Under the pieces are notes generated by a model. The model did not search any database and had not been told where the DNA came from. It saw only the letters and a list, made by a program, of their open reading frames with translations. Shown here piece after piece: positions 1 through 63,632 of a stretch of DNA of 64,000 bases (position 1 is the stretch's first letter; each line of letters opens with the position of its first letter). Both the position numbers and the translations under genes were made by a program. Source of the DNA: an uncultured Enterobacterales bacterium (GTDB lineage Bacteria > Myxococcota_A > UBA796 > JAFGLY01); NCBI GenBank assembly GCA_964512185.1, contig CAZEJJ010000011.1, positions 5,131 to 69,130 of the forward strand. Reading direction: 5' to 3'.

Positions 1-7110
<7,110 letters not shown>

Positions 7111-14149: not shown

Positions 14150-15715
14150 ATGCGCTACTTCAACACAACCGGCCCCTGCGAGGCCGAGCGGCACTACATG
14201 CTGCCGCCACAGCAGCGCATGCCGGCCCTGCTGCCCTTCGTCGAGCAGCAGCTCTACTACGTGGTGCACGCCGCCCGGCAGACCGGCAAGAGCACCGCCA
14301 TGATCGCCTTCGCCCGCCGCCTGCGCGAGCAGGGCCACGCTGCGGTCTACGCCAGCCTCGAGGAGAGCCAGGGGCTAGACGAGATCGAGCCGGCCGAGGC
14401 CGTGTGGCTCAGCTCCCTGGCCCGCAGGGCCATGCAGCAGCTCCCGGATGTCGAGGTGCCACCGCCGGCGTCGGTCCAAGATGATGCCACCGGCGCTCGC
14501 CTCGGCCACTGGCTCACCCTGCTGGCCCAGGCCGCCGCCCCCCGCCCCGTGGTGGTCATCCTCGACGAGGCCGACGTGGTCCGGGGCCTGCCCGTGGTCA
14601 ACCTGCTGCGCCAGCTCCGGAACGGCTTCATCGGCAGGGGCGTGGGCACCTTCCCCGTCTCCGTCGCCCTGGTGGGCATGCGCGATCTGCGCGACTACCT
14701 CGCCCACGCAAGAGACGGCGCCCCCGTCAACCCCGGCAGCCCCTTCAACATCAAGTCCGCCTCCATCACCCTGCGCGGCTTCACCCAGGACGAGGTGGGC
14801 GAGCTGTACGCCCAGCACAGCGCAGCCACCGGCCAGCCCTTCACGCCCGACGCCGTGGCCCGCGCCTTCTGGTGGACCCAGGGCCAGCCCTACATGGTCA
14901 ACGCCCTGGCCCGCATCGCCGTCATGGAGCTGGTCACGGATACCACCCAGCCCGTCACCGCCGCTCACATCGACCAGAGCAAGGAGCGCCTGATCCAGGC
15001 CCGCACCACCCACCTCGACAGCCTGGCTGAGCGGCTGGCCGAGCCCAGGGTGGCCCGGGTGGTCCAGCCCGTCATCCTGGGCGACAACCCCCTGGCCATC
15101 CCCTACGACCACGACGACTTCCAGTACGCCATCGACCTGGGCCTCATCGTGCGCGGTCCCCAGGGCGCCCAGCCCGCCAACCCTATCTACCGCGAGGTCC
15201 TGGCCCGGCAGGTGGGCCTGCGAATCCAGGAGTCCCTCAACCAGCCCTGGTGGCCCTGGCGCACCCCCGACGGGCGCCTGGACTTTCCCGCCCTGATCGA
15301 CGCCTTCCTCGACTGGTGGCGCGACAACGAGGGCGCGGTCAAGGCCCACGGCAACAAGAACTACCCCGAGGCCCTGCCCCACCTGGCCCTGATGGCCTTC
15401 CTGCAGCGGGTGGTCAACAGCGGCGGCCACGTCACGCGCGAGTACGCCGCCGGCCGGGGCGCCGTGGACCTGGTGGTCCACTACGGGTCCGACCGCTTCG
15501 TGCTCGAGATCAAGCGCGTCTTCACCGGCGGTCACACCCCCGAGCGCGTGCGGGAAGAAGGCGTGGCCCAGCTCGGGCGCTACCTGGACGAGCTGGGCGA
15601 GCGTGAAGGCTGGCTGGTGATCTTCGACCAGCGAGACGGCCAGGCCTGGGGCGACCGGCTGTGGCGAGAAGAGCGCCAGGTCGACGGCAGGACCATCAGG
15701 CTGCTGGGGGGGTGA
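14150..15715 (+). CDS. P-loop ATPase fused to a C-terminal PD-(D/E)XK nuclease-like domain (copy 1, motifs intact)
   Basis: N-terminus MRYFNTTGPCEAERHYMLPP. Walker A ARQTGKST, Walker B VVVILDEAD. C-terminus GRGAVDLVV (Asp codon 15467-15469) ... FVLEIKRV (Glu 15506-15508, Lys 15512-15514). Confidence 0.8.
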   Translation: MRYFNTTGPCEAERHYMLPPQQRMPALLPFVEQQLYYVVHAARQTGKSTAMIAFARRLREQGHAAVYASLEESQGLDEIEPAEAVWLSSLARRAMQQLPDVEVPPPASVQDDATGARLGHWLTLLAQAAAPRPVVVILDEADVVRGLPVVNLLRQLRNGFIGRGVGTFPVSVALVGMRDLRDYLAHARDGAPVNPGSPFNIKSASITLRGFTQDEVGELYAQHSAATGQPFTPDAVARAFWWTQGQPYMVNALARIAVMELVTDTTQPVTAAHIDQSKERLIQARTTHLDSLAERLAEPRVARVVQPVILGDNPLAIPYDHDDFQYAIDLGLIVRGPQGAQPANPIYREVLARQVGLRIQESLNQPWWPWRTPDGRLDFPALIDAFLDWWRDNEGAVKAHGNKNYPEALPHLALMAFLQRVVNSGGHVTREYAAGRGAVDLVVHYGSDRFVLEIKRVFTGGHTPERVREEGVAQLGRYLDELGEREGWLVIFDQRDGQAWGDRLWREERQVDGRTIRLLGG

Positions 15716-15750
15716 CGCAGCTGGGCGGCCAGCGGCAGCGTCGGCCGCCG

Positions 15751-16185
15751 CTACTCCCGCAGCAGGGCCTTGACCATGGCTTGGGCGGACACGCAATCGG
15801 CGGCGCTGACCTTGACGTTTCCGTCGGGCACGGTGAGGAGGGCGGCTCCCTGCTCGAGGCGGCGGGACTCCTCGGCGCTCGGATCGCTGGCCGGCAGCTG
15901 CACCACGGAGGTGGCGGCTTTTTAGTGGTTGCTGTGCTGCAAGCTGCAGTGGGTGGCGTAGAAGGGGTGGCTGCCGCGCTCCTGCTCCACCTCGCAATGA
16001 GCGGGTCCCGTGGTCCAGCCCGCGGGCGCGACGGCGTCGTCGGTGCCCAGGATCTCCACCAGGTTGGAGTGGCCGCTGAGCGTGTCGGTGGCGTAGACCC
16101 CCCAGGCCGTGCCCTCGGTGGAGATGGAGACGAGGTTGCGCGAGACCTCGCCGCCGGTGGTGACGGCATGGGGAGCACGAGCTCG
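15751..16185 (-). pseudogene. Decayed ORF downstream of the HTH gene, with an in-frame TAA and no start codon
   Basis: A GC3-rich frame reads ...TTGGEVSRNLVSISTEGTAWGVYATDTLSGHSNLVEILGTDDAVAPAGWTTGPAHCEVEQERGSHPFYATHCSLQHSNH-TAA(15922-15924)-KAATSVVQLPASDPSAEESRRLEQGAALLTVPDGNVKVSAADCVSAQAMVKALLRE. I did not recognise a family. Confidence 0.35.
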
Positions 16186-16187
16186 GA

Positions 16188-16667
16188 TCAGTAGTCCAGG
16201 CCCATTTCCTGGACCTCTCTGGTCAGCTCATCCAGGATGGCCTTGCGCCTGGCCTGGTCCCTCCTGCGATACTCCAGCACGTCGGACAGGGACACGCGGC
16301 GGTGCGTGCCCACCTTGCGGAAGGGGATCTCGCCGCGGTCCAGCAGCTTGATGAGGTGCGGGCGCGACACGTTGATGAGGTCAGCGGCCTGCTGGGTGGT
16401 GATCTCGGCCCTGACCGGCACCACCGCCACCGCGTCCCCGTTCGCCATCAGCGTCAGTATTCGCGCCAGCAGGTCGACGACGGGCGCAGGGATGGAGACC
16501 ATCCGCTCGCTCCCCTCTGGGTGCAGCCGGACCACGCTGCCCCGCTCGAGGTCGCGGAGCAGACGCAGGGCGTCCTCTGCCTCCATGGCGAGGGCGTCAT
16601 CGGACAGGTCCAGGGCCGTGCTGGGCATGGGTATCTCCAAGGGCATGGCAGCCGCCATTCGCAACAA
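16188..16667 (-). CDS. Excisionase-family helix-turn-helix DNA-binding protein (antitoxin-like)
   Basis: ITTQQAADLINVSRPHLIKLLDRGEIPFRKVGTHRRVSLSDVLEYRRRDQARRKAILDELT. The true start may be one of the internal ATGs (16658 or later). Confidence 0.75.
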   Translation of the reverse strand: MLRMAAAMPLEIPMPSTALDLSDDALAMEAEDALRLLRDLERGSVVRLHPEGSERMVSIPAPVVDLLARILTLMANGDAVAVVPVRAEITTQQAADLINVSRPHLIKLLDRGEIPFRKVGTHRRVSLSDVLEYRRRDQARRKAILDELTREVQEMGLDY

Positions 16668-16758
16668 CGCAATGTATACGGATCATTCGTAACGGCGAAG
16701 GTCCATGGGCCGAGTAGCCCACCTCACCCGCACATGGACCGATGGACGACCGCAGTCC

Positions 16759-16880
16759 TTCGGCGCCGGGATGCACGCCGGGGTCGGCGTCGTCGCAGTC
16801 CCCGTCGGCCTCGCTGTAGCCGTCGCCGTCGGCGTCGATGGTGTCGGTGTCGGGCGCCGACCCGGGGGCGCTCGCGAAGC
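16759..16880 (-). pseudogene. Fragment of a MopE-type metal-binding-repeat protein
   Basis: DTDTIDADGDGYSEADGDCDDADPGVHPGAE matches the repeats of the 61699-62595 protein (DGDGY...GDCDD.D..V.PGA.E). There is a single repeat and it is truncated on both sides. Confidence 0.4.
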
Positions 16881-16924
16881 CGCGTGGGCTGTGATGCCTT
16901 GTCGATCCCCACCGGAGCCTGGTC

Positions 16925-18505
16925 ATGCGCCACTTCAACACCGCCGGTGTCTGCCTGCCCGAGCTGCACTACATGCTGCCGCCCGAGCTGCGCCTGCCCG
17001 GGGTCCGGGAGCTGTTGGCCCAGCGGGCGTACTTCGTGGTGCACGCCCCACGTCAGACGGGCAAGACCACCACCCTGCGCGCGCTGTGCCGGACCTTGAC
17101 GGCCGAGGGTGAATACGCCGCGCTGCACTTCTCCTGCGAGGGGGGGCAGGCCTACCCGGAGGATCCCGGCGCCGCCGAGCGGGTGGTGTGGGACAGCATC
17201 GTCGACGAGGCTCGGGACCAGCTCGGCACCGAGCTGCGCCCACCCGCCGTCGGGGTGGCGACCGCTCCGGGGAGCTTCCTGCTGACGAGCATCACGGCCT
17301 GGTGTCGCGCGTGCCCGCGCCCGCTGGTACTAGTCTTCGACGAGATCGACGCGCTGCTGGGCCGCGGCATGATCACGGTGCTGCGGCAGCTCAGGGCGGG
17401 GCACCCCAAGCGAGGGACCGCGTTCCCCTCCTCGGTGATCCTCTGCGGCCTGCGGGACGTGCGCGACTACAAGGCGGCGTCCGGGGGCGACGCCAGCCGG
17501 CTGGGCACGGCCAGCCCCTTCAACGTGCTGGTGGAGTCCATCAGCCTGGGCAACTTCACCGCCTCGGAGGTGGCGGACCTGTGCGGCCAGCACAGCGCGG
17601 CCACGGGCCAGCCCTTCACCCCTGCGGCGCTGGAGCGGGCCTACGAGCTGACCGGGGGCCAGCCCTGGCTGGTGTGCGCCCTCGCACGCGAGGTGATCGA
17701 CAAGCTGCGCGTCCCGGTGTCCGAGCCCATCACGGTGCACCACCTGGACCGGGCCAAGGAGCGCCTGGTCCTGGCGCGGGCCACCCACCTGGACTCCCTG
17801 GTGGACAAGCTGCACGAGGGCAGGGTGCGCCGAGTGCTCGGGCCGCTGATGGCAGGGGACTATGTCGAGCTGGCCGATACCTACGACGACGACATCCAGT
17901 ACGTAGCGGACCTGGGGCTCATCACCCGCAGGCCGGTGCGGGTGTCCAACTCCATCTACCGCGAGGTCATGGTCCGCGTGCTGGCGGCCATGGCCGAGGA
18001 CGCCCTGCCCACCCCCCCCACCCGCAGCTTCGTCCTGCCCGACGGCACCTTGGACATGGCGCGGGTGCTCGAGGAGTTCGCGGCCTTCTGGCGCGAGCAC
18101 GGCGACATCCTGGCCGACGGCATGAGCTACCACGAGGTCGCGCCGCAGCTGGTGATCATGGCCTGGTTCCAGCGCGTCGTGAACAGCGGCGGCTACGTGG
18201 ATCGCGAGTACGGCATCGGCCGTGGCCGCATCGGCCTGCTGCTCCGCTGGCCGCACGCTGGTCCCGGCGGCCAGCGCGCCTGGCAGCGCGAGGCTGTCGA
18301 GCTGGAGGTCTGGGCCGCGGGCCGGCCCGACCCGCTGCCCAAGGGCCTGGCGCAGCTCGACGCCTACCTGGAGCGGCCCGGCCTGGACGCGGGCGTGCTG
18401 GTGGTCTTCGACCGCCGGCCCGAGGCGCCGGGGATCGACGAGCGGACCGTCTTCTCCCGGGCCGTGACCCCCACGGGTCGCCAGGTGACCCTGCTGCGGG
18501 CCTGA
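16925..18505 (+). CDS. P-loop ATPase fused to a degenerate PD-(D/E)XK-like domain (copy 2)
   Basis: MRHFNTAGVCLPELHYMLPP. Walker A PRQTGKTT, Walker B LVLVFDEID. The C-terminus GRGRIGLLL (Gly codon 18233-18235 replaces the Asp) ... AVELEVWA has no Lys. Confidence 0.8.
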   Translation: MRHFNTAGVCLPELHYMLPPELRLPGVRELLAQRAYFVVHAPRQTGKTTTLRALCRTLTAEGEYAALHFSCEGGQAYPEDPGAAERVVWDSIVDEARDQLGTELRPPAVGVATAPGSFLLTSITAWCRACPRPLVLVFDEIDALLGRGMITVLRQLRAGHPKRGTAFPSSVILCGLRDVRDYKAASGGDASRLGTASPFNVLVESISLGNFTASEVADLCGQHSAATGQPFTPAALERAYELTGGQPWLVCALAREVIDKLRVPVSEPITVHHLDRAKERLVLARATHLDSLVDKLHEGRVRRVLGPLMAGDYVELADTYDDDIQYVADLGLITRRPVRVSNSIYREVMVRVLAAMAEDALPTPPTRSFVLPDGTLDMARVLEEFAAFWREHGDILADGMSYHEVAPQLVIMAWFQRVVNSGGYVDREYGIGRGRIGLLLRWPHAGPGGQRAWQREAVELEVWAAGRPDPLPKGLAQLDAYLERPGLDAGVLVVFDRRPEAPGIDERTVFSRAVTPTGRQVTLLRA

Positions 18506-30702: not shown

Positions 30703-33700
30703 CTACTCCGACCGCAGGAGTCTGGCGAGGGCGCGGCCCGTGTGGCTGTGGGGATGCTGCGCCAGCTGTCGAGGGCTGCCTGTGGCGAGGATGGTTCCGC
30801 CCTCGTCGCCGCCCTCCGGGCCCAGGTCCACCAGGTGGTCCGCGGCGCGGATCAGCTCCAGGTTGTGCTCGATGAGCACCACGGTGTCGCCGCGCTCCAC
30901 CAGGCTCTGCAGCACCTGCAGTAGCTGGGCCACGTCTGCCGGGTGCAGGCCGGTGGTGGGCTCGTCCAGGAGATAGATGGTGCCCTTGCCGCGGCCCGCC
31001 AGCTCCAGCGCAAGCTTGACCCGCTGGGCCTCACCCCCGGAGAGGGTGTCGGCGGGGCGGCCCAGCTCCAGGTAGCCGAGGCCTACCTGCACCAGGCTGC
31101 GCAGCACGCGGGCCAGGGAGCGCTGGTTGGCGAAGAGCTCCAGGGCCTGCTCGGCGGGCATGGCCAGCACCTGGGAGATGTCATGGCCCTGCCAGCGCAC
31201 GTCGAGCACGCGCTCCCGGTAGCGGCGGCCGCCGCAGTCGTCGCATGGAATCCACACATCCGAGAGAAAGTGCATCTCCACCAGCACTGCGCCGCGGCCC
31301 TGGCAGCCGGGGCAGCCTCCGTCGCGGTTGTAGGAGAAGTCCGCCGGGGTGAGGCCCCGTGTCTGGGCGGCGGGCAGGCGGGTGAACAGGCCGCGCAGCG
31401 GGCCCAGCAGCTTGGTGTAGGTGGCCGGGCAGGAGCGGGGCGAGCGGCCGATGGGCGCGTGGTCCACCACCACCGCGCGCTGCAGGTCGGGGGGCAGCAG
31501 CAGCTCACCGGCCGGCAGGGCGCGGCCCTGGGCGCCGTGCAGGACCTGCCGCAGTCGGGGGGCGAGGGTGTCCATGATCAGGCTGCTCTTGCCCGAGCCG
31601 GAGACGCCGGTGACCACGGTGAGGGCGCCGGTGGGCAGGCAAAGGTCCACGCCCTGCAGGTTGTGGCCCCTGGCCTCCATGAGGCGGATGGGTGGCCCCC
31701 CGGTGCGGGGCTCGTCGGGTGTGGGCAGGCGCGCTCGACCCGCCAGCCAGGCGCCGGTGATACTGCGCGGATCCGCCGCGATGGCTGCGGGGGTGCCGGC
31801 GGCCACCAGCCGCCCCCCCTGGCTACCCGGCCCCGGCCCCAGGTCCAGCACGTGGTCCGCGCGTCGGATGGTGTCGAGATCGTGCTCCACCAGCACCACC
31901 GTGTTGCCCAGGTCGCGCAGGCCCTCCAGGGTGTCGAGCAGGCGGCCCACGTCGCGGGGATGCAGGCCGATGGTGGGCTCGTCGAGCACGTACAGGGTGC
32001 CCGTGAGGCGGTTGCCCAGCTGCCCGGCCAGCCGGATGCGCTGGGCTTCTCCGCCGGAGAGCGTGTGACCGCGGCGGTCCAGGTTCAGGTAGTCGAGGCC
32101 CACGTCGCGCAGGAAGCCCAGCCGCGCGAGCAGCTCGGGGAGCAGCTGCGCGACGATCTGGCGCTCCCGCGGGCTCAGGACCAGGGCTTCGGTCCATGCC
32201 AGGGCTCTCCGCACGGTCATGCGGGTGAACTCGGCGATGTCGAGCCCGCCCACCCGCACCCCCAGGGAGGGGGCCTTGAGCCGCCTGCCCTCGCAGCGCG
32301 GGCAGGGGTTCCTGGCGTCGGCCTTGGTCTCGCCGCCGCTGCGCGTGACCCCCAGACCGTCGCAGGCCGGGCAGGCGCCCACGTGGCTGTTGAAGGAGAA
32401 GTGCCGCGGGGTGGGCTGCTCGGGCAGCACCGCGCCGTGCTCGGGGCACTCGGCGCGCATGGAGAGGGTGAGGGGGGCTCCCTGGCGAGGCAGGAAGGCT
32501 GCCCGGTCGCCGCCGTAGCCGTAGGCCAGGCGCAGGGCGTCGGCTGCGCGGTCGGCGGGAGCCCTGGCGGGGTCGAGGCGGTCGATCACCAGGGTGCAGC
32601 CGTCGGCCAGCAGGGACAGGGCCTCGGGGCTGTCGAGATCCAGGTCCTGCTGTCCGGTCCATAGGCGCCTGAGCCCGTCGCCAGCGAGCTCTGCCTGGCG
32701 GGCAGCGGGATCGGCAGCTGCGGGCAGGGTGGTGACGATGCGTCCGGCGCCGGGGGCCTGCTCCGCGAGCCAGCGCGCTCCCGACGAGGGATCGAGCCCC
32801 AGCACGAGGCGCCCGCAGAGGTGGCAGTGGGGCCGGCCGATGCGGGCCCAGAGCAGGCGCAGCAGGTCGTAGACCTCGGTCACCGTGGCCACGGTGGAGC
32901 GTGGGTTGTGGGCGGCCTTGCGTTGCTCGATGGCGATGGAGGGAGCGAGCCCTTCGATGGAGTCCACCGGGGCGCGGTCCAGGCGGCCCAGGAAGCGCCG
33001 GGCGTAGGTGCTCAGGCTCTCCACGTAGCGGCGCTGGCCTTCGGAGAAGAGGGTGTGCAGCGCCAGGGAGGACTTGCCGGAGCCCGACACGCCGGTGACC
33101 ACAGTGAGCTTGCCCTGGGGGATGCTGACGTCGATGCCCTGGAGGTTGTGCCGCCTGGCCCCGCGCACGACGATGTCGCGCGCCCCGCGTGTGCCGGCCC
33201 GGTAGGGGGCAGGGGCCTGCGCCGCCATGGGCAGCGCGCCCCCCCCCCCCCCCCCCCCGCGCAGGGGGGCCCCCCCCCCCCCTGTGGGGGTGTCGAGGGT
33301 GGCGATGACCTCGGGGGTTCCCTCACCCACCAGCTGTCCGCCAGCGTCTCCACCCCCGGGACCCAGGTCGATGACCTGATCGGCCACCTTGATGACGTCG
33401 GTGTTGTGCTCGATGATGACGACGGTGTTGCCCGCGCTCACCAGGGCCTGCAGGGCCTCCAGCAGGCGCTCGATGTCGGCGAAGTGCAGGCCCGTGGTGG
33501 GCTCGTCCAGCAGGTAGAGGGTGCGCCCCGTGGGCGGGCGCTGCAGCTCGCGCGCCAGCTTGATGCGCTGGGCCTCGCCGCCGGAGAGGGTGGAGGAGGG
33601 CTGACCCAGCTCCACGTAGCCCAGGCCCACCTGCTCCAGGGCCGCCAGGGGGCGGTGGATGCTCCGGTGGTTGCGGAAGAACTCCGTGGCTTCGGTGACG

Positions 33701-36093
33701 CTCATGGCGAGCACGTCGGTGATGGTGCGGCCCCGGTAGCGGATCTGGAGGGTCTCGGGGTTGAAGCGCTTACCGCCGCAGTCCTCGCAGGGCACGTGCA
33801 CGTCGGCCAGGAACTGCATCTCAAGCACCTGCACACCGGCCCCCTGGCAGGACTCGCAGCGACCGCCGTGCACGTTGAAGGAGAAGCGGCCCGGCTTGTA
33901 TCCGCGGGCCGCCGACTCGGGCAGGCGCGCGAAGAGCTCGCGGATGCCGGTGAGGGCCCCGGTGTAGGTGGCGGGGTTGGAGCGCGGGGTGCGGCCGATG
34001 GGATCCTGGTCGATGCAGATGACCTTGTCGAGGTGCTGCAGGCCCTGGATCCCGCCGTGGGCCAGGGGTTCGCGCTGGGCCCCCTGGAGCGCCCTGGCCG
34101 CCGCCGGCTCGAGGATGTCCAGCAGCAGGGTGGACTTGCCGGAGCCCGAGACGCCGGTGAGCACGGTGAGGGTGCCCAGACGCAGGGAGACGTCGATGCG
34201 CTGCAGGTTATGGGCGCTCGCGCCGCGGATCGCGAGGCGCTCGCCGTTGCCTTCGCGCCGCCTGGAGGGCATGGGGATGGAGCGCTCGCCGCGCAGGTAG
34301 CGGGCCGTGAGACAGTCGCTGCGCAGGAAGGCCCCGGGGGCGCCCTGGGAGGTGATCCGGCCACCGGAGCGCCCGGCGCCCGGGCCGATCTCCACCAGCT
34401 CGTCGGCGGCGCGCATGGTCTCGGCGTCGTGCTCCACCACCAGCACCGAGTTGCCTCGGTCGCGCAGGCTGAGCAGGGTGTCCAGCAGGCGCCGGTTGTC
34501 GCGCGGGTGTAGCCCGATGCTGGGCTCGTCCAGGATGTAGGTGACCCCCTGCAGCCCGCTGCCCACCTGGGCGGCCAGGCGGATGCGCTGCGCCTCGCCG
34601 CCCGAGAGGCTGGCGGTGGCTCGATCGATGCCCAGGTAGCCCAGGCCCACGTCGTCGAGGAAGCGCAGGCGGTGCCGCAGCTCTCCCAGGATGGGCTGGC
34701 CCAGCGGCCGCTGCGCTTCGTCCAGCTGGATGGCGTCGAAGAAGGCCCGCGCGTCGGCGACGCTCAGGGACACCAGCTCGGGCAGGCTCCTGCCGCGGAA
34801 GCTGACCGCGCGCGCCAGGGGGTTGAGGCGGGTGCCCTCGCAGGAGCCGCAGGGGTCGTGTCGCCGGAAAGCCTGCAGGGGCCGGTGGCGGGTGAAGCGC
34901 CAGATGCGCCCCAGCATGTGCATGAGGCCGGTCCAGCGGCGGGTGACCTGGCGCCGGCGGCCGCCGCCGGTCTTGATCACCGTGTATTCGAGATCGGCCC
35001 CGTGCAGGATGGCCCGCTGGATCTGGGCGGGCTGCTGGCCCCAGGCCAGCTCGGGATCGGCGCTCAGGGCCCGCAGCACCTGGCGCAGCACGCCCTCGTC
35101 CACCGTGGTGAGGAAGGGCAGGTGGCCGTGCTTGAAGGCCCGGCAGGCGCTGGCGGTGGGCGCCTGCGGGTCCATGACCAGCTCGGGCTGGAAGGCCTCC
35201 AGGTGGCCCAGGCCGTCGCACTCGGGGCAGGCCCCCTGAGGGGTGTTGAAGGAGAAGAGGCGGGGCTCCAGCTCGGGAAGGTAGACATCGTGGTCGGGAC
35301 AGCCGCGCTCGGTGGCGAAGCTGCGGTGGCGCTCGCCCAGCAGCAGCGTGACGACGCCCTTGCCCATGGCCAGGCCCTTCTCGATGGCCTCCAGCAGGCG
35401 ACCGCGGCGCTCCGGATCCAGCCGCAGGCGGTCCATCACCACCTCGATGCTGTGCTTCTCGTAGCGAGCCAGGCCGATGGGTTCGTCCAGGCGCCCGAGC
35501 TGGCCGTCGATCCGAGCGCGGGTGTAGCCCTCGGCCAGCAGGTCAGCCAGCTCGCGGCGATACTCGCCTTTGCGCTCCTGGACCAGGGGGCCCATGACGA
35601 TGGTGTCGATGCCAGCGTGCTCCTGGAGCAACCGATCGGCGATGGCCCCGGGGGTGGAGCTGGTGATGGGCTTGGAGCACACCGGGCAGTGGGCGGTGCC
35701 CAGGCGCGCCATCCACAGGCGCAGGTGGTCGAGGATCTCCGTGACGGTGCCCACGGTGGAGCGCGGGTTGCGGTTGACGCCTTTTTGATGGATGGCCAGG
35801 GTGGGGGAGAGCCCCTCTACACGCTCCACCCTGGGTTTCTCCATCTTGCCCAGGAACTGGCGCGCGTAGGCGGAGAGGGACTCCAGGTACCGGCGCTGTC
35901 CTTCCTGGTAGAGGGTGTCGAAGGCCAGCGACGACTTGCCGCTGCCCGACAGCCCGGTGATCACCACCAGCGCGTCACGCCGCAGGTCCACGTCCACACC
36001 GCGCAGGTTGTGCTCGCGGGCGCCTCGCACGAGGATGTGGCGGTGGCTGTCGGTCATGATGGAACATATGTCCAGTTGGCGACCCGCGGGCAA
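30703..36093 (-). CDS. Tandem-fused double UvrA-family ABC ATPase (1796 aa from the TTG at 36093; the ATG at 36057 gives MTDSHRH...)
   Basis: Module 1: [54 protein letters not shown], ending [14 protein letters not shown]. Module 2: [54 protein letters not shown], ending [15 protein letters not shown]. Confidence 0.8.
33234..33282. repeat. Homopolymer junction: C20 (33239-33258), G6 (33264-33269), C13 (33270-33282)
   Basis: Counted directly. In the gene frame it encodes [19 protein letters not shown] between the two UvrA modules. An ATG (33226-33228) follows immediately. Confidence 0.9.
36062..36073. promoter_or_regulatory. GAAC-N4-GTTC-like palindrome (GGACATATGTTC on the minus strand), a candidate SOS/LexA-type operator
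   Basis: One mismatch to GAAC-N4-GTTC. It lies 5-16 nt upstream of the uvrA-like ATG at 36057. Confidence 0.3.
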
Positions 36094-45871: not shown

Positions 45872-45934
45872 AGCAGGCCGCGCTGCGGCGGCGAGGTTGC
45901 GGGTCGCAGTAGGTTCGGGGTTCTGTCGCCTGCT
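45872..45934. mobile_element. 63-bp partial copy (right arm) of the MITE-like element at 62596-62795
   Basis: 45901-45934 matches 62761-62794 at 33 of 34 positions (GGGyCGCAGTAGGTTCGGGGTTCTGTCGCCTGCT). Its ends are AGCAGGC...GCCTGCT. Confidence 0.45.
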
Positions 45935-45938
45935 GAGA

Positions 45939-46733
45939 CTATGGGATCTTCTCTTCCTGCACGGCGCCGGCCGTGAGGGGGGTGTCGAGCACCGTGCCGT
46001 AGGTGCGCGGCGGGGGGAGCTGCTGGAGCCGCGCGCCCACCAGCACGCCGGCCACCTGGAAGTCGTAGGCCAGCAAGAAGCCCGCGGGGCCATAGGCCAG
46101 GGTCATGTCGCCTTCGGGTGGAGAGAAGCGGAAGCGCTCGGCCTGTACCTCGGAGGAGCCCACCTGCAGCGTGGTGGGACCCAGGGCCACCACCGGGCCC
46201 TCGAGGATCGCGCCCGTCTCGGCGGAGAGCAGCTTGAGCTGCTGGACCTGCTGCAGGGTGCGCAGCGCGCGCTCGGGGTCGAAGAGCTCGGGAGAGCTGA
46301 GGTCCACCGCCGTGGCCTCGAGGGTCCAGGACTGGGCGCCGGTCTCGTCCACCACCGTGACGTTCCACTGGCCGTCGGAGCCCTGGCGGGCCTGCACTTC
46401 GCGCACGCGCCCCGCGGTGTCGAGCGACGCCGAGAAGCTGCGGTCGCCCCCCAGCCGTGCTCCCAGCCGCTGGCGGTAGCGCAGGGTGCCCTTGGCCACT
46501 GGCAGCAGCATGTCGGTCCAGCCCTGCAGCAGGCGCAGCTCGCCGGTGGGCGTGGGCAGGTAGGTGATCTGCGCTTCGCGGCTGCCGATGCTGCGATCCT
46601 CGGCGAGGATCTGGTAGTCCAGGGGCTGCTCTTCGGCCCGGGCTTCGAGGGGCGCGGCCGCGATCAGCAGCAGGATCGCCGCCGCGATGATGGGCGCCAG
46701 GGCGTAGAGGCTGGCTGGAGGCTTGGGATCCAC
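45939..46733 (-). CDS. Secreted hypothetical protein
   Basis: The GTG at 46733 gives VDPKPPASLYALAPIIAAAILLLIAAAPLEARA, a signal peptide. The track ORF extends to 46850, but that N-terminus is Pro/Cys-rich and would abut ychF. Confidence 0.5.
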   Translation of the reverse strand: MDPKPPASLYALAPIIAAAILLLIAAAPLEARAEEQPLDYQILAEDRSIGSREAQITYLPTPTGELRLLQGWTDMLLPVAKGTLRYRQRLGARLGGDRSFSASLDTAGRVREVQARQGSDGQWNVTVVDETGAQSWTLEATAVDLSSPELFDPERALRTLQQVQQLKLLSAETGAILEGPVVALGPTTLQVGSSEVQAERFRFSPPEGDMTLAYGPAGFLLAYDFQVAGVLVGARLQQLPPPRTYGTVLDTPLTAGAVQEEKIP

Positions 46734-46861
46734 AGGGGCTCCGGGCGGGCAGCAGGGACAGGGTAACAGGCCCGCGTACTGCGGTCTGCCGCCCCCCTGC
46801 CAACGTGCTACAGGGGCCGGCCATTCCGCCGGGTCGTCTCCGGCGTGCACTGGAGGCGGCC

Positions 46862-51013: not shown

Positions 51014-51727
51014 ATGCTTGGAAGCACCGTGGTTTTCGCGTTGACGCTGGCGCTTGGTTGTGGCGAGAAGACCCCCCCCGAGCCAGCGGTACAGCCACAG
51101 GCCGCCCCGGCGGCAGCCCCTGCACCACAGCCGGCGCCCGCCCCAGAGGAGCCCGCGGCTGCGCCCGTGCCGGTGGCCGAGCCCGCCGCTCCCTCCACCA
51201 ACGCCGATCTGCAGGTCATGCTCGCCCGCAACGACGGCAGCACCCAGGCCGGTCGCGTCCAGCTGGTGGAGCGCAGCAGCGACTGGTACGCCGAGGCCGT
51301 CTGGACCGCTGATCCCGACGATGTCAAGCTCCAGCTGGAGGGCAACGGCACCGAGGTCATGGCCTCCTGGGCCGAGATCAAGAAGATCAGCGTCACCATC
51401 GTCAAGGTGTCCGAGAGCAGCGACTGCACCTACGACAGCAACTTCACGCCCTGGCTCTACGACTGCACCCTGCGCAACGAAGGCACCGCCGTCACCACCG
51501 ATGGTCGCAGCTGGCAGGTCACAGATCGCCACAAGTGGCGGTTCAATTTCGACGATGGCAGCAGCCAGGAGTTCTGGCTCTCCAAGCACCCGGCCCGGGA
51601 GCAGGACGCCAACACGGTGGGCTTGGACAGCTCCGGTGAAAACTACGACCTCTACATCACCCTCCAGGATCGGCTCCGTGAAGAGGTGAAGACCATGGTC
51701 ACCGGGGTTACCGTGTCGGCCCACTAG
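51014..51727 (+). CDS. Lipoprotein, hypothetical
   Basis: MLGSTVVFALTLALGC lipobox, a Pro/Ala linker, and a 170-aa domain with no recognised family. Confidence 0.55.
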   Translation: MLGSTVVFALTLALGCGEKTPPEPAVQPQAAPAAAPAPQPAPAPEEPAAAPVPVAEPAAPSTNADLQVMLARNDGSTQAGRVQLVERSSDWYAEAVWTADPDDVKLQLEGNGTEVMASWAEIKKISVTIVKVSESSDCTYDSNFTPWLYDCTLRNEGTAVTTDGRSWQVTDRHKWRFNFDDGSSQEFWLSKHPAREQDANTVGLDSSGENYDLYITLQDRLREEVKTMVTGVTVSAH

Positions 51728-51783
51728 GACACACGCCGGCCCGGCGCCGGGGTTCACGTCCGCTGCTGTCCTCCTGGTGAACC

Positions 51784-52812
51784 ATGTCCGAGGCTGCGCG
51801 CCCGGATCTCATTCTGCGCTTCCGTCGCTGGCTCACCTGGGGGCTGGCCGCCGCCGTCGCGCTGTACCTGGCGGGTTCCATCTACGCGGGGCTGGGCGCC
51901 ATGGGGTCGGCTCTGGCCACCTTCGCCTGGTGGCTCATGTTGCCGGTGCTGCTGCTGGTGCTCGCCAACTACTTCCTGCGCTTCCTCAAGTGGCACTACT
52001 TCGTGGGGCGGCTCGGCGTGCGGGTGCCCTTCTGGGACAACCTGGTCATCTTCGGGGCCGGGCTCGCCATGGTGATCTCCCCGGGCAAGGCGGGCGAGGT
52101 GCTCAAGCCCTACCTGCTGCGGGCGCGCACAGGCGCCAACATGGCCACCAGCATCCCGGCCCTGGTGGCGGAGCGGCTCACCGACGGCATCGCCATGCTC
52201 ATCCTGGCGGGCCTGTCCATCGGCACCTACGCGGGGGACAAGGTGCACTACGTGATCATCCCCGCCGTGGTGGGGGCGGTGGCGCTGGGCGTGCTGGCCA
52301 GCAGGACGCTCTCCATGGGCATCCTCCACCTGCTCACCCGCTTTCCAGTGCTGGACCGCGTGGGTCACAAGCTCGAAGAGATGTACCTGGCCATGCGCAC
52401 CTGCCTGGCGCCGGTGCCCCTGATCATGGCGGTGCTCATCTCCGTGCTCGCCTGGTGGGCCGAGTGCGTCGCCTACTGGCTGATCTTCAAGGGCTTCGGT
52501 GTGGCCGCCACCCTCGACGTGTCCACCTTCCTCTACGCCTTCGCCACCGTGGCCGGAGGGGCCATGCCCGGAGGGCTGGGCGTGGCCGACGGAGCTCTGG
52601 GCGCAGGAGCTCTCACCCTGGTCCCCGGCATCGACGAAGCGCAGGCGGTGGCGAGCGCCCTGCTGGTGCGCGTGACCACCTTGTGGTTCGGTGTCGGGCT
52701 GGGGGCGCTGGCCCTGGTGCGAGCCGGACGCCTGCTGGACGGGGTCATCGCCCCACCCGTGGAACCCGCCGCCGGCCAGGAGCCTGCGTCGCGTACCGGT
52801 TCCAGTGCCTGA
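51784..52812 (+). CDS. UPF0104 (LPG-synthase-TM / flippase-like) membrane protein, paralog 2
   Basis: LANYFLRFLKWHYF, MVISPGKAGEVLKPYLLRARTG, eight hydrophobic segments. Confidence 0.7.
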   Translation: MSEAARPDLILRFRRWLTWGLAAAVALYLAGSIYAGLGAMGSALATFAWWLMLPVLLLVLANYFLRFLKWHYFVGRLGVRVPFWDNLVIFGAGLAMVISPGKAGEVLKPYLLRARTGANMATSIPALVAERLTDGIAMLILAGLSIGTYAGDKVHYVIIPAVVGAVALGVLASRTLSMGILHLLTRFPVLDRVGHKLEEMYLAMRTCLAPVPLIMAVLISVLAWWAECVAYWLIFKGFGVAATLDVSTFLYAFATVAGGAMPGGLGVADGALGAGALTLVPGIDEAQAVASALLVRVTTLWFGVGLGALALVRAGRLLDGVIAPPVEPAAGQEPASRTGSSA

Positions 52813-61698: not shown

Positions 61699-62595
61699 AT
61701 GCGGTCCACGCTTCACGCTCCCATCAGCCCCCTGCTGGCGCTGGTCGCCTGTCTCGGCTTCGCCTGCACCCTGGGCAGCGACACCATCATCGGTCCCGAC
61801 GGAACCGAAGAGGAGGTCCCCTCCGGGTCGCCTCAGCTGTCCATCAACATCACCGTGATGGACTTCGGCGATGTGTCGTATGGGCAGAGCTACAGCGAGT
61901 CTCTGCACGTAGAAAACGTGGGCGGCGACGACCTGGTGCTCAGCGCCATCACGGCCACCGATCCCTTCTCGGCCAACTACGCCAGCGACGTCACCGTCAC
62001 GCCGGGCGGCTCCACCACCCTGGTGGTGCGCTACCAGCCCGTGGAGTACGCGGAGCACGAGGGCAGCTTCAGCCTCAGCTGGAACGCCGACGAAGACGAC
62101 ACCGCCGTCGACGCCGGCTACTGGGAGATCCCTCTGTACGGCTCGGTCATCACCGACGAGGACGGCGACGGCCACGACAGCCTGGACGCCGGCGGCGACG
62201 ACTGCGACGATGCCGACGACGGCACCTACCCCGGGGCCGCCGAGACCTGGTACGACGGCACCGACCAGGACTGCCTCGAAGATGATGACTACGACCAGGA
62301 CGGAGACGGCTACCAGGTGTCCGCCTACCAGCCTGAGTGGAGCTCCGGGGGCGGTGACTGCAACGACGCCAACGCCGAGGTGTACCCCGGGGCGCCCGAC
62401 TACTGGTACGACAACCTCGACTCCAACTGCGACGAGTCCGATGACTGGGACCAGGACGGCGACGGCTACCGCACCACCCTGGGCGACGAGGGCACCGACT
62501 GCGACGACGAGAACTCTGCGGTCAACCCAGGCGCCGAAGAAGACGACACCAACGGCATCGACGACGACTGCGACGGCCGCGTCGACGAGACCTAG
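61699..62595 (+). CDS. Lipoprotein with an Ig-like (choice-of-anchor/ASH-like) domain and four MopE-type metal-binding repeats
   Basis: Lipobox LLALVAC. Repeats of DGDG(H/Y)...GDC(D/N)D.(D/N)..(T/V).PGA.E. Confidence 0.65.
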   Translation: MRSTLHAPISPLLALVACLGFACTLGSDTIIGPDGTEEEVPSGSPQLSINITVMDFGDVSYGQSYSESLHVENVGGDDLVLSAITATDPFSANYASDVTVTPGGSTTLVVRYQPVEYAEHEGSFSLSWNADEDDTAVDAGYWEIPLYGSVITDEDGDGHDSLDAGGDDCDDADDGTYPGAAETWYDGTDQDCLEDDDYDQDGDGYQVSAYQPEWSSGGGDCNDANAEVYPGAPDYWYDNLDSNCDESDDWDQDGDGYRTTLGDEGTDCDDENSAVNPGAEEDDTNGIDDDCDGRVDET

Positions 62596-62795
62596 AGCAG
62601 GCGACAGAACAGGTCGCCGACAGGCGGCCGCCCCGAATCGTAGCGAGGGCCAGCAGGCGCTCAGCGAGGCCGGTTCTGCGCAGTAGTGGGCGAGGGAGGC
62701 GTGCTTTCAGCACGTTGACCGAGAGCGCTGCAAGCAGGGACGGCCGCAGTCGCGACTGCTGGGCCGCAGTAGGTTCGGGGTTCTGTCGCCTGCTC
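62596..62795. mobile_element. MITE-like non-autonomous element, about 200 bp
   Basis: GAGCAGGCGACAGAAC (62595-62610) and its exact reverse complement GTTCTGTCGCCTGCTC (62780-62795). CTAG is present on both flanks (62592-62595 and 62796-62799). The interior is an imperfect long palindrome centred on GTGCT-ttc-AGCAC (62701-62713). No ORF. Confidence 0.55.
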
Positions 62796-63632
62796 CTAGC
62801 TGAGCAGCCCCGGTAGCCCCAGCACCATCGCCCGGGTGAGCTCCTCGCCCCACAGCAGCGCCGCCAGCGCGCCCATGGCCAGGAAGGGGCCGAAGGGGAT
62901 GGCGGTGCGCAGGCCTCGGCCGCGGCCGATGATGCTGGCGATGCCCACCGCGCTGCCGCTGATGCTGGCCAGCAGGATGACCAGGAAGAGCGCGGGGAAG
63001 GCCCCCAGGAAGCTGCCGATCATGGCCAGCAGCTTGACGTCTCCGAAGCCGATGCCCTCTTCGCGGCGGATGAGCCAGTACAGCCCCGCGATGGCCAGCA
63101 GGAAGCCGCCCCCCACCAGGGCTCCCACCAGCGACTGCTGCCAGGTGGGGCCCAGCCCCGGCTGCAGCCAGTTCAGCCCCAGGGCACCCAGCACGCCCAC
63201 GGGCACGGCGTAGATGCTGAACTCGTCGGGGATGATGTAGTGCTTGAGATCCACAAAGGTGAGCCCCACCAGCATGGCCACGAAGGTGGCGTAGTAGGCG
63301 TACATGGCCAGGTGGGCCGCGTCGAGCTGGTCGGGGGTGGGGATGAGGCGGCGCCAGAGCAGCAACAGCAGCACGCCGGTGCAGGCCTCGATCAGGGGGT
63401 AGGTGGCCGGGATCGGGCTGGCGCAGGAGCGGCAGCGCGCCCGCAGCAGCAGCCAGCTGAGCACGGGGATGTTGTCGTACCAGCGTATGCTCGAGCCGCA
63501 GCGCGGGCAGTGGCTGGGGGGCGAGACCACCGAGCGGTCCTCGGGCATGCGTGCGATGCAGACGTTGAGGAAGCTGCCGATGCACAGCCCGAGGATCAGG
63601 ACGAAGACCTGCAGCGCGATCCAGAAGCTCAT
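62796..63632 (-). CDS. pilD: Prepilin peptidase (A24 family)
   Basis: GSFLNVCIARMP, CPRCGSSI...CRSCASPI, GFGDVKLLAMIG. Confidence 0.85.
   Translation of the reverse strand: MSFWIALQVFVLILGLCIGSFLNVCIARMPEDRSVVSPPSHCPRCGSSIRWYDNIPVLSWLLLRARCRSCASPIPATYPLIEACTGVLLLLLWRRLIPTPDQLDAAHLAMYAYYATFVAMLVGLTFVDLKHYIIPDEFSIYAVPVGVLGALGLNWLQPGLGPTWQQSLVGALVGGGFLLAIAGLYWLIRREEGIGFGDVKLLAMIGSFLGAFPALFLVILLASISGSAVGIASIIGRGRGLRTAIPFGPFLAMGALAALLWGEELTRAMVLGLPGLLS

What the first reader, a model, noticed from the sequence alone, without database searches (positions are those of the whole stretch)
62592..62799. MITE-like element inserted exactly at a CTAG shared by two convergent stop codons
A 16-bp perfect terminal inverted repeat (GAGCAGGCGACAGAAC at 62595-62610; reverse complement at 62780-62795) brackets about 170 bp of non-coding, imperfectly palindromic sequence centred on GTGCT-ttc-AGCAC. 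CTAG occurs on both flanks. Deleting the element plus one CTAG leaves ...GACGAGACCTAGCTGAGCAG.... In that restored sequence the plus-strand gene ends in TAG and pilD ends in TAG on the other strand, overlapping in the palindrome CTAG. CTAG/YTAR target duplication is characteristic of IS5-type transposition. No transposase is present in the window.
Basis: partly seen in the sequence, partly recalled or inferred. Interest (0 to 1): 0.6.

Follow-up and report, generated by a model that had tools for sequence, protein, structure and literature searches.

The report
Small hairpin transposon between two stop codons
The 200-bp palindrome between pilD and its convergent neighbour is one copy of a previously undescribed family of miniature non-autonomous transposons in uncultured marine high-GC bacteria, so it is an ordinary kind of selfish DNA, and its CTAG flanks are a one-off of this site rather than the family's rule.

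Summary
A perfect 16-bp terminal inverted repeat (62595-62610 / 62780-62795) encloses a 201-bp imperfect palindrome. This palindrome fills the whole gap between the TAG stops of a MopE-motif gene and pilD.

It is a real mobile-element family:
- I recovered six further full copies at other loci in related marine metagenome contigs (84-98% identical), one divergent relative (65%) and one remnant in the window (45872-45935).
- Relatives with the same gene order lack it. They have unrelated 38-57 bp spacers.
- Three copies sit in-frame at the 5' ends of lipoprotein or secreted-protein genes, and one sits inside a radical-SAM gene.

The best end model is a 16-bp repeat plus a 3-bp target duplication:
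- Perfect: CTA here, AAG and CAG elsewhere.
- Two copies match 2 of 3 bases and one matches 1 of 3.

CTAG is therefore not the family's target, and the IS5-group YTAR reading fails. A 3-bp duplication with GAG termini points to the IS1031 group, but no transposase partner was found.

The hairpin is kept by many compensatory changes and is strand-asymmetric, which is unexplained.

Verdict: a new member of a known kind (a MITE), of moderate interest.

The parts
62595..62795 (+). MITE copy, 201 bp, defined by the 16-bp terminal inverted repeats. It forms the entire spacer between the two stop codons.
   Evidence: All six same-type copies with the standard centre are exactly 201 bp. nhmmer profile hit, E = 3.7e-67.
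62595..62610 (+). Left terminal inverted repeat, GAGCAGGCGACAGAAC.
   Evidence: pair I3, 100% complementary. The same 15-16 nt end six further copies.
62780..62795 (+). Right terminal inverted repeat, GTTCTGTCGCCTGCTC.
62592..62594 (.). Left copy of the 3-bp target duplication (CTA). Its TA plus the element's first G make the TAG stop of the MopE-motif gene.
   Evidence: Best end model. Permutation test.
62796..62798 (.). Right copy of the 3-bp target duplication (CTA). On the minus strand it is the TAG stop of pilD.
62612..62629 (+). Small hairpin present only in the left arm (GGTCGCC-GACA-GGCGGCC). It breaks the symmetry of the palindrome and is kept in all family members.
   Evidence: Helix 2.
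62701..62713 (+). Apical stem-loop GTGCT-TTC-AGCAC. This is the site of the 11-bp insertion in the JGI strain variant.
   Evidence: There is a compensatory CG to UA change in L034 and L029.
61699..62595 (+). Gene for a MopE-motif / Ig-like secreted protein, convergent with pilD. Its stop TAG is at 62593-62595.
   Evidence: Gene call of 298 aa in L001. Pfam hits.
62796..63632 (-). pilD (prepilin peptidase), 278 aa.
45872..45935 (+). Remnant of a second copy. The right-end 34 bp (45901-45934) is 97% identical to 62761-62794. A possible 7-nt left-end stub AGCAGGC lies at 45872-78. The remnant fills the 67-bp gap between the stop of the gene 45939-46850 (-) and the ATG (45871) of a lipoprotein gene.

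Best explanation
The 201-bp sequence is a non-autonomous, terminal-inverted-repeat transposon (a MITE). It belongs to a family that has spread recently in an uncultured marine high-GC lineage. The host is probably Myxococcota-like, but that is inferred only from names attached to homologues.

A transposase supplied in trans (not found, inferred to be DDE-type) binds the 16-bp ends. It inserts the element with a 3-bp staggered cut.

At this site the target was the CTA inside a CTAG in which the convergent stop codons of the MopE-motif gene and pilD overlapped. The duplication, together with the element's terminal G, rebuilt a TAG for each gene, so neither protein changed length.

Both transcripts now run into a roughly 200-nt hairpin. 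It plausibly acts as a two-way terminator or 3' stabiliser, replacing the short GC hairpin spacer seen in relatives. That last step is inference.

**Shown:** repeat family, ends, duplication statistics, absence in relatives, in-frame insertions elsewhere.
**Inferred:** transposase type, ancestral overlapping stops, any terminator role.
For: **Copies at unrelated loci with the same ends**
- L032:10009-10209 (98%), L038:10009-10209 (97.5%), L033:4181-4381 and L037:964-1164 (94.5%), L034:10018-10218 (86%), plus the window remnant.
- Four more ORFs read through further copies: P0190, P0192, P0194, P0195.

**Ends and duplication**
- Among 200 end models, 16-bp ends plus a 3-bp duplication score best at 14/18 matches, with 3 perfect.
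- Only 4 of 720 permutations of right flanks among loci reach 14.

**Insertions into known sequence**
- L037 is an insertion inside a Radical_SAM gene with a perfect CAG/CAG duplication.
- Removing 204 bp from L033 and L034 restores canonical signal peptides: MRFD(Q/R)PITRLLPLLLLPWSGVVQA|AG and MRNLVLVLLAAGLPGC.
- Homologous outer-membrane proteins carry 18-25 aa signal peptides and are about 470-510 aa, against 555 aa here.

**Absence in relatives**
- Syntenic relatives keep both genes ending at the same codons but have 38-57 bp unrelated spacers.

**Independent assemblies**
- The same insertion is present in four independent assemblies. One contig ends inside it.
Against: - No autonomous element with these ends was found, so the transposase type is unknown.
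- No true empty site was seen for any copy.
- Three of six duplications are imperfect, and L038 matches at only 1 of 3 positions.
- The closest element-free relatives have a spacer, not overlapping stops, at the pilD junction.
- The internal hairpin is conserved by compensatory changes well beyond the terminal repeats. It is consistently more stable on one strand, with GCAGTAG motifs in direct orientation on both arms. A plain DDE cut-and-paste element does not need any of this.
- Copy discovery through ORFs is biased toward in-frame insertions.
Confidence: 0.8

Rival explanations
1. CTAG-specific MITE of the IS5 group (4-bp YTAR duplication) or of the IS630/Tc1 type (CTAG target, TA duplicated).
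For: The window copy and the divergent L029 copy are each bracketed exactly by CTAG, although CTAG is about 12-fold depleted in the window. The L029 termini start with CAGTG.
Against: Five copies with the same termini as the window copy have no CTAG and no TA at their junctions.
Confidence: 0.08
2. A hairpin element moved as single-stranded DNA by a HUH-type enzyme (REPIN/RAYT-like or IS200/IS605-derived). Under this reading the flanking matches reflect a target motif, not a duplication.
For: - GTAG-containing motifs (GCAGTAG) occur three to four times, all on one strand.
- The + strand folds 27-32 kcal/mol better than the - strand in three divergent members.
- 20 of 72 pairs show compensatory changes, against 4.1 +/- 1.7 in shuffles.
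- The base before the duplication is C in all six left flanks.
Against: - Flank matches are locus-specific (4/720 permutations).
- There are perfect CAG/CAG, AAG/AAG and CTA/CTA duplications.
- The terminal repeats are perfect and lie at the very ends.
- The GTAG motifs are direct, not in the inverted doublets of REPINs.
- No RAYT or TnpA gene lies in the window.
Confidence: 0.08
3. A locus-specific structured RNA or intrinsic terminator that evolved in place between pilD and its neighbour.
For: The fold is very stable. The position is exactly between two convergent stops. Relatives have GC-rich hairpin-like spacers there.
Against: The same 201-bp sequence occurs inside coding regions and 5' ends of unrelated genes. 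The spacers of relatives are unrelated in sequence. There is no Rfam match at E <= 1, and no terminator-like site lies inside the element.
Confidence: 0.03

Closest known systems
Bacterial MITEs in general (for example Correia/NEMIS, ERIC, RUP, QMITE; reviewed in PMC10969869)
   Same: Small size (201 bp), no transposase gene, terminal inverted repeats and a short target duplication. Many dispersed copies, a whole-element hairpin, and a mostly intergenic or gene-end location.
   Different: No sequence relationship to a described family was found: no literature hit for the termini and no Rfam hit. The host is an uncultured marine high-GC lineage. The partner transposase is unknown.
IS1031 group of the IS5 family
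   Same: A 3-nt target duplication (PMC2516522 names three nucleotides and a single ORF as features of the IS1031 group). Element ends start with GAG, but that detail of the ISfinder family table is recalled from memory and was not checked here.
   Different: No IS1031-type transposase or full-length IS with these ends was found. One copy (L034) starts with CAG. Membership cannot be claimed.
IS5 group (4-bp YTAR) and IS427 group (2-4 bp) of the IS5 family; IS630 (CTAG target)
   Same: The window copy and the L029 relative are flanked by CTAG. The IS427-group elements in Paracoccus make 2- or 4-bp repeats (PMC3281130).
   Different: The same-type copies duplicate AAG, CAG and similar triplets, and have no CTAG or TA.
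Rickettsia palindromic elements (RPE)
   Same: A palindromic MITE that inserts in-frame into protein-coding genes and is read through as extra peptide (PMC10969869). Here element plus duplication is 204 bp, or 68 codons. One frame in each orientation is open in seven of the nine aligned copies. Four copies are read through in ORFs.
   Different: No sequence relation was tested or expected. My copies were found through ORFs, so the in-frame share is biased. It is unknown whether the extended proteins are made or function.
REP/REPIN elements mobilised by RAYT transposases
   Same: GC-rich hairpins kept by compensatory changes, GTAG-type motifs, and an extragenic position just after stop codons.
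   Different: REPINs have no terminal-repeat-plus-duplication structure and consist of two inverted REP units. Here the motifs are direct, a 3-bp duplication is supported, and no RAYT was seen.

Membership tests
MITE (non-autonomous TIR transposon) | Small, with no transposase coding capacity | tested here: met
   201 bp. The only open frames are 67-codon read-throughs without any database family.
MITE (non-autonomous TIR transposon) | Terminal inverted repeats shared by all copies | tested here: met
   The 15-16 bp ends (G/C)AGCAGGCGACAGAAC are present in all seven same-type loci, with at most one mismatch per arm.
MITE (non-autonomous TIR transposon) | Target-site duplication flanking each copy | tested here: met
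   3-bp model: 14/18 positions match and 3 of 6 are perfect. In the permutation control, 4/720 reach this score.
MITE (non-autonomous TIR transposon) | Multiple dispersed copies | tested here: met
   Seven full same-type loci, one remnant and one divergent relative with DNA in hand, plus four more seen only as peptides. The true copy number per genome is unknown.
MITE (non-autonomous TIR transposon) | Presence/absence polymorphism with a precise empty site | tested here: inconclusive
   The element is absent at the same junction in relatives, but their spacers differ. Removing 204 bp restores signal peptides in L033 and L034. No exact empty allele was found.
MITE (non-autonomous TIR transposon) | A cognate autonomous IS with the same ends | not testable with these tools
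   The source genome is not in the scannable collections. The right-end 18-mer gave only chance hits. There is no transposase in the window or the fetched loci.
   Only the window copy fits. The other flanks are AAG, CAG, AAG/AGG, CAA/CGA and ATA/CTG.
IS5 family, IS1031 group | 3-bp target duplication | tested here: met
   The feature is taken from PMC2516522.
IS5 family, IS1031 group | DDE transposase of that group bracketed by the same ends | not testable with these tools
   No partner element was found.
IS630/Tc1-mariner-type MITE | TA duplication, often within CTAG | tested here: not met
   There is no TA at the junctions of L032, L033, L034 or L037.
REPIN/RAYT | Inverted doublet of GTAG-headed REP units, with no target duplication | tested here: not met
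   The GCAGTAG motifs all lie on one strand, and a duplication is supported.
Described structured RNA (Rfam) | Match to a curated covariance model | tested here: not met
   No match at E <= 1 in 62300-63100 on either strand.

The most novel reading that the evidence does not exclude
The family may be more than a passive MITE. Its core keeps a strand-specific hairpin and could be a functional single-stranded module. That module might be an RNA, or a DNA strand used as the transposition substrate. The terminal repeats would then be interchangeable adaptors.

The evidence that leaves this open:
- The core is 73% identical between subfamilies whose ends are only 43-52% identical.
- 20 pairs show compensatory changes.
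- About 8 G.U pairs are conserved.
- Purine-purine mismatches are confined to one strand.
- GCAGTAG motifs run in direct orientation on both arms.

The concentration of all strain-to-strain differences inside the element would then reflect real rapid turnover, such as conversion between copies, rather than assembly noise.
Probability: 0.15. Interest if true: 0.65.

Novelty: new member of a known kind. Interest (0 to 1): 0.4.

Why it matters
- It adds a MITE family from a poorly known marine high-GC lineage, with exact ends and target duplication.
- It shows a neat case in which a transposon split two overlapping convergent stop codons and rebuilt both.
- It shows RPE-like in-frame insertions of 68 codons into signal peptides and an enzyme. 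These will mislead gene callers and protein clustering in metagenomes, because several database 'proteins' start with element-encoded peptide.
- It breaks contigs and concentrates apparent strain variation, which matters for strain-level metagenomics.
- If the strand-specific hairpin proves functional, it would be a useful model for how MITEs are co-opted.

Tried and rejected
- **Collection scans.** The right-end 18-mer GGGGTTCTGTCGCCTGCT was scanned against metagenome contigs and genome contigs. It gave 10 and 9 hits, all isolated chance matches in unrelated taxa. Not even the known JGI contigs appeared, so the source organism is not in those collections.
- **Other sequence searches.** A viral-contig scan with a gapped core pattern gave nothing. 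A distant blastn against plasmids gave nothing. Rfam gave nothing. A literature search for the terminal sequence gave nothing.
- **One-sided target idea.** I considered a fixed CWAG motif on the left flank only, as in IS200/IS605 or IS91. I rejected it because the motif is not in a fixed register relative to the end, and because flank matches are locus-specific.
- **Alternative duplications.** GACC, ACCA and GAGCA at variable offsets were judged chance.
- **Empty sites.** A concatenated protein query for the L032, L033 and L034 genes found no homologue closer than 55%.
- **Radical-SAM insertion.** A PDB sequence search, meant to show the insertion against a solved homologue, found no hit.
- **Shared CTAG stops.** I looked for other convergent gene pairs sharing a CTAG in the window and found none convincing.
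- **ISfinder table.** The ISfinder family review could not be read. The 'GAG ends' criterion therefore rests on memory.

Full report
**1. Observation**

- GAGCAGGCGACAGAAC at 62595-62610 is repeated as an exact reverse complement at 62780-62795, with 169 nt between the arms.
- The interior is an imperfect palindrome with the apex GTGCTTTCAGCAC at 62701-62713.
- As single-stranded DNA the 208-nt stretch folds at -67.8 kcal/mol, against -45.7 +/- 3.3 for dinucleotide shuffles (z = -6.7).
- CTAG lies on both sides. The direct repeat is actually CCTAG (62591-95 and 62795-99).
- The + strand gene carries Cu-binding_MopE and Ig-like domains and stops at TAG 62593-95. pilD (A24_N_bact + Peptidase_A24) stops at the complement of 62796-98.
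- The element is therefore the whole spacer between two convergent stop codons.
- CTAG is strongly avoided in this window: 14 observed, against 168 expected from composition and 83 from a Markov model.

**2. Is it repeated?**

Within the window, the right-end 34 bp recurs at 45901-45934 with 97% identity. It lies in the 67-bp gap between the stop of the gene at 45939-46850 (-) and the ATG of a lipoprotein gene. This is a remnant copy.

Scans of the two large DNA collections with the right-end 18-mer returned only chance hits. The source organism is not in them.

I then translated the element in six frames and searched the peptides against the protein collections. The reasoning was that gene callers sometimes read through such repeats. 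This worked. The contigs behind the hits carry full copies at unrelated loci:

| Locus | Identity to the window copy |
|---|---|
| L032:10009-10209 | 98% |
| L038:10009-10209 | 97.5% |
| L033:4181-4381 | 94.5% |
| L037:964-1164 | 94.5% |
| L034/L035:10018-10218 | 86% |

- L032, L034 and L038 come from the same sample as L004, a contig identical to the window.
- Four further ORFs (P0190, P0192, P0194, P0195) contain element peptides, but their DNA could not be fetched.
- A relative's contig holds a 200-bp homologue at L029:20226-20433. It is 65% identical overall and 73% in the core, but only 43-52% at the ends.

**3. Is it conserved at this locus in relatives?**

No. Contigs encoding PilD proteins 76-79% identical keep the same gene order. 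Both genes end at the same codons. The spacers, however, are 38, 50 or 57 bp, unrelated to the element and to each other, and pilD stops with TGA.

The element is present in all four assemblies of the window's own population. One contig ends inside it, as repeats often cause.

**4. Ends and target duplication**

Aligning six same-type copies with their flanks shows that the shared sequence stops at the 15-nt core AGCAGGCGACAGAAC. A 16th base is complementary between the ends in five of six copies: G...C in four and C...G in L034.

I scored 200 combinations of end position and duplication length. The best is 16-bp ends plus a 3-bp duplication, with 14 of 18 positions matching:

| Copy | Left / right flank | Match |
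|---|---|---|
| window | CTA / CTA | 3 of 3 |
| L034 | AAG / AAG | 3 of 3 |
| L037 | CAG / CAG | 3 of 3 |
| L032 | AAG / AGG | 2 of 3 |
| L033 | CAA / CGA | 2 of 3 |
| L038 | ATA / CTG | 1 of 3 |

- Because the flanks share a loose consensus (C before the triplet in all six), I permuted the right flanks among loci. Only 4 of 720 permutations reach 14, and the mean is 8. The matches are therefore locus-specific, as a true duplication requires.
- The L029 relative, with termini CAGTGCTCGGGAAAG / CTTTCCCGAGGGCTG, is again bracketed by CTAG. That subfamily may have a different target rule.

**5. Insertions into genes**

Element plus duplication is 204 bp, or 68 codons. One frame in each orientation is open in seven of the nine aligned copies.
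- **L037.** The element sits inside a Radical_SAM gene, 15 codons after the CxxxCxxC motif, with perfect CAG/CAG flanks.
- **L033.** It follows codon 5 of a Toluene_X outer-membrane protein gene that has a strong GGAGGA ribosome-binding site. Removing 204 bp gives MRFD(Q/R)PITRLLPLLLLPWSGVVQA|AGYYF. Homologues have 18-25-residue signal peptides directly before the same AxYYF motif and are about 470-510 residues, against 555 here.
- **L034.** Removal gives MRNLVLVLLAAGLPGC, a textbook lipoprotein signal peptide.
- **L032 and L038.** The element lies at or just before the start of lipoprotein genes.

These are clear insertion events. My method could only find copies inside called ORFs, so no preference for genes can be claimed.

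**6. What happened at pilD**

Any duplication model of 3, 4 or 5 bp restores ...GACGAGACC-TAG-CTGAGCAG.... In that sequence the two stop codons overlap in CTAG.
- After insertion, the left CTA plus the element's first G gives TAG for the MopE-motif gene.
- The right CTA is TAG for pilD.
- Both proteins keep the C-termini seen in relatives.
- The ends abut both stops with no leftover spacer, and the 5/5 CCTAG repeat is perfect. Both facts argue for a recent, simple insertion into such a site.

The weakness is that no empty allele was found and relatives have spacers. I put about 0.65 on this ancestral state.

A terminator or stabiliser role for the hairpin is plausible. MITE hairpins are discussed as terminators in PMC10969869, and the relatives' spacers contain GC hairpins. 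It is untested, and the consensus scan finds no classical terminator in the element.

**7. Features not explained by a plain MITE**
- The whole hairpin, not just the ends, is kept. There are 72 pairs and 97% of cells are paired. Twenty pairs changed on both sides, against 4.1 +/- 1.7 in shuffles and 1-3 in slid controls.
- About eight G.U pairs are conserved on the + strand.
- Unpaired positions are mostly purine-purine on that strand.
- The + strand RNA fold is 27-32 kcal/mol more stable than the - strand in three divergent members.
- GCAGTAG-type motifs occur three to four times, all in the same orientation, on both arms.
- Orientation relative to host genes is mixed: two copies sense, four antisense, one between convergent genes. 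This argues against dependence on host transcription.

A single-strand (HUH/RAYT-like) mechanism would explain the asymmetry but not the duplication. I keep it as a minor rival.

**8. Variation between near-identical strains**
- Window versus the JGI strain (L002/L003): over 11.2 kb, all differences lie inside the element. They are four substitutions and an 11-bp insertion at the apex.
- L032 versus L036: three of the four differences in 21 kb lie inside the element.
- Some variant bases match other copies.

This could be conversion between copies or mixing of repeat copies during metagenome assembly. I cannot tell which.

**9. Comparison with known families**

It meets the structural definition of a MITE.
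- The IS5-group (YTAR) and IS630 (TA) readings fail on the duplication test.
- A 3-nt target is a stated feature of the IS1031 group (PMC2516522). IS427-group elements make 2- or 4-bp repeats (PMC3281130).
- The 'GAG' terminus criterion is from my memory of the ISfinder table and was not checked.
- Without a partner transposase, no IS-family membership can be claimed.
- Functionally, the in-frame insertions resemble Rickettsia palindromic elements (PMC10969869).

**10. Verdict**

The MITE interpretation is supported. The CTAG/IS5 mechanism is not supported as a family rule. Novelty: a new member of a known kind. Interest: moderate (0.4).

Noticed in passing
window 45872-45935: Remnant of a second element copy. 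The right-end 34 bp is 97% identical, and there may be a 7-nt left-end stub. It fills the gap between a gene stop (45939) and the ATG of a lipoprotein gene (45871).
   Followed up: partly
window 62653-62730 vs L002/L003; L032:10072-10101 vs L036: Between otherwise identical strain assemblies, all differences over 11.2 kb (4 SNPs plus an 11-bp apex insertion) fall inside the element. So do 3 of 4 differences over 21 kb. The cause is either conversion between copies or assembly mixing of repeats.
   Followed up: partly
L029:20226-20433: A 200-bp homologue in a related genome, upstream of an LPG_synthase gene. Its core is conserved (73%), its terminal repeats are quite different (CAGTGCTCGGGAAAG), and it is bracketed by CTAG on both sides. 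The orthologous window site (about 51720-51784) has a 60-bp spacer without it.
   Followed up: partly
L033:4166-4400, L034:10001-10240, L032:10001-10240, L037:775-1170: Element copies lie in-frame in the signal-peptide region of three secreted or lipoprotein genes and inside a radical-SAM gene. Database proteins P0121-P0124, P0189 and P0191 therefore carry 68 element-encoded residues.
   Followed up: partly
window 62595-62795 and all family members: Strand asymmetry. The + strand is 57% purine with GC skew +0.14 to +0.19. It has GCAGTAG motifs in direct orientation on both arms, and its fold is about 30 kcal/mol more stable than that of the complement.
   Followed up: partly
L038:10001-10215: This copy has no matching triplet. 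Instead ATGA(C)C occurs on both sides (ATGACCAG | element | T ATGAACC). The native start codon of the lipoprotein gene lies 1 nt after the element, with no ribosome-binding site of its own.
   Followed up: no
window, whole: CTAG is about 12-fold under-represented (14 against 168 expected from composition). Most occurrences coincide with the end of a long ORF on one strand, that is, with TAG stop codons.
   Followed up: partly
window 14150-18505: Two paralogous AAA_22 ATPase genes of about 520 aa each (14150-15715 + and 16925-18505 +) flank a small HTH_17 (excisionase-like DNA-binding) gene at 16188-16667 (-). This may be a mobile or defence module.
   Followed up: no
window 1-7110 and 30703-36093: A polyketide synthase module (KS-AT-ACP-KR) is cut by the window start. 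Separately, there is a 1796-aa protein with UvrA-type domains and repeated ABC ATPase regions, about twice the usual UvrA length.
   Followed up: no
L001:1243-5909 / L004:4245-8911 (just beyond window end 64000): Upstream of the DegT aminotransferase and pilD lies a cluster of two radical-SAM/SPASM enzymes, a small SPASM protein and an ABC transporter. This looks like a peptide-maturation cluster, and it is conserved in relatives L024, L027 and L029.
   Followed up: no
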